Positions 63,081-63,418 of a stretch of DNA of 64,000 nucleotides are shown here, in pieces. The stretch covers positions 12,526,001-12,590,000 of the forward strand of contig CM075991.1 of the NCBI GenBank assembly GCA_038087875.1, given 5' to 3'. Numbering within the stretch: position 1 is the stretch's first letter; each line of letters starts with the position of its first letter. Both the position numbers and the translations under genes were made by a program. This DNA is from Malacoraja senta (Eukaryota). The notes under the pieces are model-generated. The model ran no database searches and was not told the DNA's origin. It saw only the letters and a list, made by a program, of their open reading frames with translations.

Positions 63081-63418
63081 TTAAGAAGGAACTGCAGATG
63101 CTGGAAAATCGAAGGTAGACAAAAGTGCTGGAGAAACTCAGCGGGTGCAGCAGCATCTATGGAGCGAAGGAAATGGGCAACGTTTCGGGCCGAAACCCTT
63201 CCGGGTTTCGGCCCGAAACGTTGCCTATTTCCTCCAGTCTGAAAAAGGGTTAAGGCCCGAAAAGTTGCCTATTTCCTCCAGTCTGAAGAAGGGTTTCGGC
63301 CCGAAAAGTTGCCTATTTCCTCCAGTCCGAAGAAGGGTTTCGGCCCGAAACGTTGCCTATTTCCTTCGCTCCATAGATGCTGCTGCACCCGCTGAGTTTC
63401 TCCAGCACTTTTGTCTAC
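63081..63418. mobile_element. Palindromic Penelope-derived element with internal 44-bp hammerhead tandem array and 16-bp TSD
   Basis: CTGCACATATACTTGT at 63065-63080 and 63419-63434; near-perfect inverted arms; ttgcctatttcc recurs at 63221, 63265, 63309, 63353. Confidence 0.85.

What the first reader, a model, noticed from the sequence alone, without database searches (positions are those of the whole stretch)
63200..63365. 44-bp tandem array made of hammerhead cores
Seen: inside a young palindromic element (near-perfect arms, perfect 16-bp TSD), the unit CAGTCTGAAGAAGGGTTTCGGCCCGAAACGTTGCCTATTTCCTC is repeated about four times with exact 44-bp spacing (63221, 63265, 63309, 63353). Each unit is little more than one ribozyme core. 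The first copy lacks the CTGA box and each other copy has at least one core change (CTGAAAA, GAAAAG, CCGAAGA). Inference: head-to-tail cores would let a dimer-dependent minimal hammerhead assemble in cis. The array resembles cDNA of a tiny circular or multimeric RNA (retrozyme-like) or repeated RT slippage. The concentration of changes in catalytic positions, within an OGDH intron in sense orientation, could reflect selection against pre-mRNA cleavage.
Basis: partly seen in the sequence, partly recalled or inferred. Interest (0 to 1): 0.75.

Follow-up and report, generated by a model that had tools for sequence, protein, structure and literature searches.

The report
Stuttered Penelope hammerhead repeat, cores broken
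A small non-coding fragment of a very common Penelope-like jumping gene carries its 44-base ribozyme-shaped front end repeated 3.7 times, likely because the copying enzyme jumped back during insertion, and no copy keeps an intact self-cutting motif, so it is probably a decayed by-product rather than a working RNA circle.

Summary
The array is real: 63203-63365, period 44, 3.7 copies, inside a 338-bp head-to-head insertion with a perfect 16-bp target duplication. The insertion has the described form of a truncated Penelope-like element (PLE): inverted terminal repeats, tail on one arm, minimal hammerhead. The family covers 6.8% of the window and forms 11 other head-to-head pairs. The unit runs from the family's usual 5' end to 38 bases into the hammerhead. 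Its junction lies 11 bases from the cleavage site, so self-cleavage did not make it. Runs of two organisms list three other direct junctions of this segment (periods 32-40), and a 40-bp ribozyme-free array of the family's tail lies at 22457. No unit is intact; changes are not significantly enriched in the core (P 0.29-0.50). Both ends of the insertion also occur in a relative whose flank is about 5% divergent, so neutral decay can account for the changes. Most likely one back-jump of the reverse transcriptase at insertion, then DNA slippage. A circle and selection are unsupported but not excluded. The array's interior was not confirmed in raw data. PLE-derived hammerhead tandems with 51-972-bp units are already described.

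The parts
63065..63080 (.). left target-site duplication (16 bp)
   Evidence: identical to 63419-63434
63081..63201 (-). inverted arm: family positions about +128 to +5 (C3 of the hammerhead = 0); 63081-63112 is the 32-bp 'tail' present on this arm only
   Evidence: 96% identical to the copy at 39645-39800
63202..63202 (.). centre of the head-to-head junction (one C)
63203..63233 (+). unit 0, partial (+8 to +38): helix II, GAAA box and ACGU palindrome, no CUGA box
63234..63277 (+). unit 1 (-5 to +38): G8>A, loop II TC>AA, C15.2>A
63278..63321 (+). unit 2 (-5 to +38): core boxes intact, C15.2>A breaks the dimer palindrome
63322..63365 (+). unit 3 (-5 to +38): U4>C; continues without a scar into the right arm
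63366..63418 (+). rest of the right arm (+39 to about +91), without tail
   Evidence: right junction seen at 0 differences in both runs of organism A and in organism B
63419..63434 (.). right target-site duplication (16 bp)
52168..52389 (+). host context: OGDH N-terminal coding exon, upstream and on the same strand as the array's hammerheads
   Evidence: Pfam PF16078, E 1.8e-12
22457..22672 (+). control: 40-bp x 5.4 tandem array of the same family's tail, with no hammerhead

Best explanation
This is a short non-coding insertion of a very abundant, likely Penelope-like family in which the first 44 bases of the usual inserted segment, the hammerhead-shaped part, are repeated 3.7 times, likely through a back-jump of the reverse transcriptase during insertion followed by DNA slippage, and it is predicted to be inactive as a ribozyme. 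Shown: anatomy, unit limits, state of each core, family abundance, clustering of family 5' ends at the unit's start, and presence of both insertion junctions in a relative. Inferred steps: (1) the endonuclease cut both strands about 16 bp apart and each nick primed cDNA at one of the two internal start sites (about +128 with tail, about +91 without), giving head-to-head arms; (2) the right-hand cDNA reached the template's usual 5' end at -5, re-engaged template at +38/+39 with at most 2 nt of homology, and stopped at +8 in the last round, where it met the left arm; (3) the resulting 31-bp direct repeat let slippage or unequal exchange add at least one unit, which explains the C>A shared by units 1 and 2; (4) the remaining changes are neutral decay.
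For: Bases -5 to +4 occur only in units 1-3, not in unit 0 or the left arm. Taking away three periods leaves an ordinary palindromic insertion that lacks these bases, so simple local duplication cannot build the unit; a template that had them was copied. 23 of 63 other family hits in the window, and 23 of the 37 that reach the hammerhead, start at -10 to +1; upstream sequence of three longer copies finds no further family copy in the window. 11 other head-to-head pairs, 10 with the tail on one arm only (read), match the PLE arrangement in PMC8557442 and PMC3846280 and the two internal RT start sites in PMC11167929. One search lists three other direct junctions that end at +37/+38 and restart at +4, +6 or -1 (periods 34, 32-33, 40): +37>+4 in X1 (1 contig), X2 (1), X3 (8) and 13 RNA reads from 11 starts; +37>+6 in X3 (11 contigs) and 4 reads; +38>-1 in X1 (1), X3 (1) and 2 reads. 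In the tailless RNA, +1..+9 is predicted to pair with +36..+41 (p 0.4-0.54), which places the 5' end beside the re-entry site. A ribozyme-free 40-bp array of the family's tail shows that short tandems form without a hammerhead. With 1.6-2.4% divergence on the window's lineage, 2.1-3.0 changes are expected in the array and 4-5 events are seen (P 0.06-0.36).
Against: No whole genome was held, so arrays could not be counted; the window has 1 hammerhead array. The other junctions come from 15 shown of 784 joints plus one indel row, laid at 88% likeness with 18-26 letters on the short side in contigs (60 in the best RNA read), a range the tool flags as repeat-prone. The array has more changes than the arms (4-5 events in 129 bp against 1 in 208; Fisher P 0.07-0.03), and the arms are cleaner than the higher age estimate predicts (P 0.04-0.16). 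3 of 3 full units are damaged, whereas the three closest solo or paired copies (39645, 28519, 45097) are intact. In copies with the tail, the 5' end is predicted to pair with the tail instead of +36..+41. No PLE protein was matched by any search.
Confidence: 0.6

Rival explanations
1. Wholly post-insertional: a normal palindromic insertion with a right arm from -5 was duplicated by DNA slippage between the CCTTC at the end of the left arm and the CCTTC at +36..+40, amplified, and later lost the centre of its palindrome.
For: The family has this internal complementarity; fold-back centres that keep the CUGA box exist (window 30214/30301; X3 joint 63201>63279); the C>A shared by units 1 and 2 points to at least one DNA-level duplication; the tail array at 22457 has two blocks of identical units.
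Against: It needs two more events: a T>C at the junction before amplification (all three junctions have C) and a centre deletion. It does not predict that the unit starts at the family's habitual 5' end.
Confidence: 0.2
2. Micro-retrozyme: the array is cDNA of a 44-nt-period circular or multimeric RNA that self-cleaves as a dimer and is mobilised by the PLE enzyme.
For: Each full unit is one minimal hammerhead and the dimer fold is nested and possible. Vertebrate retrozymes derive from PLE terminal repeats, with units from 51 bp (10.64898/2026.07.22.740005). Cervera and de la Pena proposed circles as templates for PLE tandems (PMC4209133).
Against: The junction is 11 nt from the cleavage site, so a tandem must exist before any cleavage-made circle. 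The array is fused in register to linear-template arms. Units differ from each other, none is intact, helix I is 2 bp and H17 is U in this subfamily (17 of 19 other copies have C; that U17 cleaves poorly is recalled). Other loci show different periods. 8 of 9 Xenopus dimers tested did not cleave, and PLE minimal hammerheads cleave weakly or only with protein.
Confidence: 0.07
3. The array, or its variant letters, is an assembly or consensus error at a long hairpin.
For: No listed contig spans the interior. 5 of 6 changed bases are changes to A, three of them lengthen an A run. In both runs of organism A no laid contig carries the window's own letters in the left flank.
Against: Every unit is distinct, unlike a duplicated contig; the right junction is seen at 0 differences in two samples and both junctions in a second organism; the target duplication is perfect; similar junctions exist elsewhere.
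Confidence: 0.07
4. Whatever made the array, an intact version cut OGDH pre-mRNA and selection fixed the changes that disable it.
For: Sense orientation to OGDH. All three full units are damaged; with the dimer helix counted, 3 of 4 events hit functional sites (P 0.13; 0.06 if the shared change counts twice). Retrozymes are depleted from genes in Xenopus.
Against: Not significant on any count; the loop change is neutral; the left arm is predicted to pair with unit 3 or unit 0 in a long duplex (whole element -227.8 kcal/mol; dimer folds 30-38 kcal/mol above); solo copies carry 14 core changes in 209 sites.
Confidence: 0.06

Closest known systems
Truncated endonuclease-bearing Penelope-like elements: inverted pLTR, tail and minimal hammerhead (PMC4209133, PMC8557442, PMC3846280, PMC11167929)
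   Same: Head-to-head inverted arms, a 32-bp tail at one end only, a target duplication, and a hammerhead with CUGANGA and GAAA boxes, an extra base before G10.1, a G10.1-C11.1 pair and a palindromic 15.2-16.2; partial tandems are a described feature.
   Different: The upstream partial copies end at +38, inside the terminal repeat, not at either usual 3' end; the period is only 44 bp; no coding sequence; helix I is 2 bp, as in the D. virilis variant, not 4-5 bp.
Animal non-LTR retrozymes (PMC7229834; Li, Clavereau and Pollet, bioRxiv 10.64898/2026.07.22.740005)
   Same: Tandem units each holding a type I hammerhead, derived from PLE terminal repeats, few copies per array (75% of families have at most seven), reported in one cartilaginous fish.
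   Different: Unit 44 bp against 51-972 bp (consensus range) and 170-400-nt circles; no two consecutive intact hammerheads; minimal rather than canonical hammerhead; embedded in a palindromic PLE insertion; no sign of transcription or a circle.

Membership tests
Penelope-like element (non-coding truncated copy) | inverted terminal repeat in head-to-head arrangement | tested here: met
   arms 63113-63201 / 63332-63420; 11 more pairs in the window
Penelope-like element (non-coding truncated copy) | 30-40-bp tail at one end only | tested here: met
   63081-63112 on the left arm only; 10 of 11 other pairs alike
Penelope-like element (non-coding truncated copy) | target-site duplication | tested here: met
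   16 bp, perfect
Penelope-like element (non-coding truncated copy) | linked to a telomerase-like RT with GIY-YIG endonuclease | tested here: inconclusive
   Two short peptides upstream of family copies (about 23052-23150 minus, 44921-45001 plus) resemble the PLE ORF end by recall only; Pfam gave 0 families and the one library search gave 3 unrelated repetitive proteins
PLE minimal hammerhead (Cervera and de la Pena 2014) | core boxes CUGANGA and GAAA, extra base before 10.1, G10.1-C11.1, palindromic 15.2-16.2, in the family | tested here: met
   8 of 19 other window copies fully intact; helix II pairs kept in 16-19 of 19, only one-sided variation (U-A / U-G), no two-sided change. Rfam gave no hammerhead hit
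PLE minimal hammerhead (Cervera and de la Pena 2014) | the same features intact in the array's units | tested here: not met
   0 of 4 units intact
PLE minimal hammerhead (Cervera and de la Pena 2014) | helix I of 4-5 bp | tested here: not met
   2 bp (17 of 19 and 15 of 15 paired; third pair 1 of 12); 2 bp is described for the D. virilis variant
PLE minimal hammerhead (Cervera and de la Pena 2014) | self-cleavage as a dimer | not testable with these tools
   folding only: dimer 22-26 kcal/mol above the best fold for native and family-state multimers
Non-LTR retrozyme | [quoted passage not shown] | tested here: not met
   definition read
Non-LTR retrozyme | tandem unit derived from a PLE terminal repeat | tested here: met
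   unit = family positions -5 to +38
Non-LTR retrozyme | expressed as a circular RNA | tested here: inconclusive
   one oligo-dT run of organism B, about 5% read, 150-nt reads: no pile-up of ends; such a library would miss a 44-nt circle
Non-LTR retrozyme | the same unit dispersed to other loci | tested here: inconclusive
   no genome held; only other junctions are visible; the window has one such array

The most novel reading that the evidence does not exclude
The PLE reverse transcriptase habitually loops back across the 5' hairpin of its own RNA and so writes core-only hammerhead arrays (periods 32-44 bp) de novo; intact ones cleave in cis into units that circularise and are re-copied, making this the birth stage of the smallest retrozymes, and copies that land in sense introns are disabled by selection.
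Probability: 0.07. Interest if true: 0.72.

Novelty: new member of a known kind. Interest (0 to 1): 0.25.

Why it matters
As one locus it matters little: a decayed by-product of a family that fills about 7% of this window. Its use is as a footprint. If the recurrent re-entry at +37/+38 holds genome-wide, it gives a concrete, countable route from a PLE terminal repeat to a hammerhead tandem, the step that the 2026 preprint leaves open (it suggests local amplification after insertion), and a third preferred template-entry site for a reverse transcriptase whose mechanism is only partly known.

Tried and rejected
Whole-genome count: no genome held. Collection scans for the tandem or the family motif: 0 matches in metagenome contigs, viral contigs and prokaryote genomes; these collections are not where an animal repeat is expected, so this is no evidence. 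Rfam: no hammerhead family at gathering score or at E<=10; only hairpin-driven miRNA hits below threshold. Protein proof of PLE identity: Pfam blank, library hits unrelated. OGDH exon against PDB sequences: 0 hits; Pfam confirmed it. Runs: no RNA holder listed. Depth bins over the array are swamped by family copies and say nothing on the window's own junction. The joint 63361>63282 in X3 (table 5c) was left out of the count because its kind is not shown. Sense/antisense intron bias: not testable on one window. Lunse et al. 2017 (PMC5785218) is not held; I saw it only as cited. Earlier scan notes: none for this place or sequence.

Full report
Observation. The array is at 63203-63365, period 44, 3.7 copies, 93% matches, spacing exactly 44; 20 shuffles of the window gave no comparable array. 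It lies in a 338-bp insertion (63081-63418) with 99% complementary arms over 89 nt and a perfect 16-bp target duplication. Counting C3 of the hammerhead as 0, unit 0 is +8..+38, units 1-3 are -5..+38, unit 3 runs on to about +91, and the inverted left arm is +128..+5. Six bases differ from the family state: G8>A, loop II TC>AA and C15.2>A in unit 1; the same C15.2>A in unit 2; U4>C in unit 3. The OGDH N-terminal exon lies 10.7 kb upstream on the same strand; a search with recalled peptides found no later exon, so the intron position is inferred.

The family. One young copy as query gives 60 hits covering 6.8% of the window. With two references there are 68 merged hits, 63 outside this locus. 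Eleven other head-to-head pairs occur; in ten, one arm ends near +115..+129 and the other near +79..+96. This is the arrangement described for Penelope-like elements: an inverted 5'-truncated repeat with a 30-40-bp tail at one end (PMC8557442, passages; PMC3846280, passages and Discussion). The tail corresponds to two internal start sites of the reverse transcriptase, and the enzyme cuts and extends both strands (PMC11167929, parts 1-2 of 4). The motif fits the PLE minimal hammerhead (PMC4209133, parts 1-2 of 4): both boxes, an extra base before G10.1, a four-pair helix II and the ACGU palindrome. Across 19 other copies helix II pairs are kept in 16-19 of 19 with only one-sided change, helix I is two pairs, and H17 is C in 17 and U in 2. 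Rfam does not detect it. A PLE protein link rests on recall of two short peptides; the searches did not confirm it. That the host is a cartilaginous fish is also recall, from the look of the repeat, and comes from no call.

How the array arose. Three points carry the argument. First, the unit starts where the family usually starts: 23 of 63 other hits, and 23 of the 37 that reach the hammerhead, begin at -10..+1. The references begin at -24 and -4, which could bias this, but upstream sequence of three longer copies found no other family copy. Second, bases -5..+4 exist only in units 1-3. Removing three periods leaves a normal palindromic insertion without them, so the unit cannot be a plain local duplication; either the enzyme jumped back at least once while inserting, or the centre was deleted later. 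Third, the junction joins +38 to -5, while cleavage would fall at +27/+28, so the ribozyme did not define the unit. In a tailless RNA the 5' end is predicted to pair with +36..+41 (p about 0.5), which would set it beside the re-entry point; in copies with the tail it pairs with the tail instead. The change shared by units 1 and 2 is most simply a later duplication of one by the other. A 40-bp, 5.4-copy array of the family's tail at 22457-22672 shows short tandems without any ribozyme.

Outside evidence. No genome was held. Of 24 listed runs I laid four. Organism A (two samples of one study; it may be the source species, so it is not counted as independent of the assembly) has the right junction and flank with 0 differences (63398-63508; 63394-63650). 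Organism B has a contig from 63394 to 63650 with 12 other letters and 2 gaps, and one from 62886 to 63101 that shares the window's letters at five sites (62887, 62914, 62953, 63004, 63038) where most or all other laid depth differs; both reach into the element. So the insertion is older than a split with about 5% flank divergence. Among 15 shown of 784 joints and six indel rows are three other direct junctions of the hammerhead segment: +37>+4, +37>+6 and +38>-1, in DNA contigs of A and B and in 19 RNA reads of B in all. They have short sides and were laid at 88% likeness, so they are suggestive only, but they share the 3' break and differ in the restart, as a recurrent jump predicts and a single circle lineage does not. 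The RNA run showed no pile-up of ends; it is oligo-dT, from another organism and 5% read, so it does not test a circle. Against: no listed piece spans the array, and organism A shows no contig with the window's left-flank letters, which I cannot explain.

Function. Only unit 2 has both boxes intact, and its 15.2 change puts a mismatch beside A15.1-U16.1 in any dimer. Dimer folds are 22.5 and 25.8 kcal/mol above the best fold for native pairs, 22.0-25.7 for family-state multimers, and 29.8-38.0 inside the whole element, where the left arm pairs with the units. These energies ignore tertiary contacts and protein help, and an older-subfamily dimer scores alike (23.8), so they show competition, not impossibility. 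Published PLE hammerheads cleave weakly, or only with the protein, and cleavage is not needed for insertion in vitro.

Selection. Two of four independent events hit the 12 core sites (P 0.29; 0.40-0.50 on other counts); adding the dimer helix and G10.1-C11.1 gives P 0.06-0.13. 11 of 19 other copies are also broken, though most are older; the three nearest are intact. The array has more changes than the arms (P 0.07-0.03 by events, 0.01 by bases), but a rough 1.6-2.4% lineage divergence, taken from the visible rows, predicts 2-3 changes against 4-5 seen. Selection is not excluded and not needed.

Known or new. Expressed retrozyme circles are 170-400 nt with canonical hammerheads (PMC7229834, passages). 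PMC6765202 and PMC6466107 were read as passages. The array resembles a retrozyme in layout but fails the membership test. Seven searches showed no paper on a 44-bp unit or on re-entry at this site; subscription papers are not covered. Verdict: a real, slightly unusual by-product of PLE insertion; interest 0.25.

Noticed in passing
window 22457-22672: 40-bp x 5.4 tandem (98% matches) built from the same family's tail; the first three units carry one variant and the next two another, as stepwise slippage would give. No hammerhead.
   Followed up: partly
window 25478, 46461, 10246-10340, 23820: Four family arms begin at +26 to +30, at the predicted hammerhead cleavage site (+27/+28), and one more at +25 (35055); a hint that cleaved RNA is sometimes the template.
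   Followed up: no
window 62850-63064: In both runs of organism A no laid contig carries the window's own left-flank letters, though the right flank is identical; organism B has them. Filtered records or a deletion beside the palindrome.
   Followed up: partly
window 62877-63065 and 63471-63578: Both flanks have about 5-50 times single-copy depth: the element sits inside another, low-copy repeat.
   Followed up: no
window 63244-63307: 5 of the 6 changed bases in the array are changes to A, three at the C of a CpG; real damage in a hairpin loop or consensus error.
   Followed up: no
window 63175: The single arm mismatch matches the older subfamily's letter, so the two arms may come from two template RNAs rather than differ by later mutation.
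   Followed up: no
window 22854-23135 (-) and 44900-45097 (+): Two family copies keep upstream sequence ending in short peptides that resemble, by recall, the C-terminus of a PLE ORF; not confirmed by Pfam or the library search.
   Followed up: partly
window 27349-27486 (+): Rfam SNORA77 match just above the gathering score (45.9 against 42 bits).
   Followed up: no
window 328-6638 (+): Exons of a phosphoglycerate-mutase-like gene (recognised by recall from the translation).
   Followed up: no
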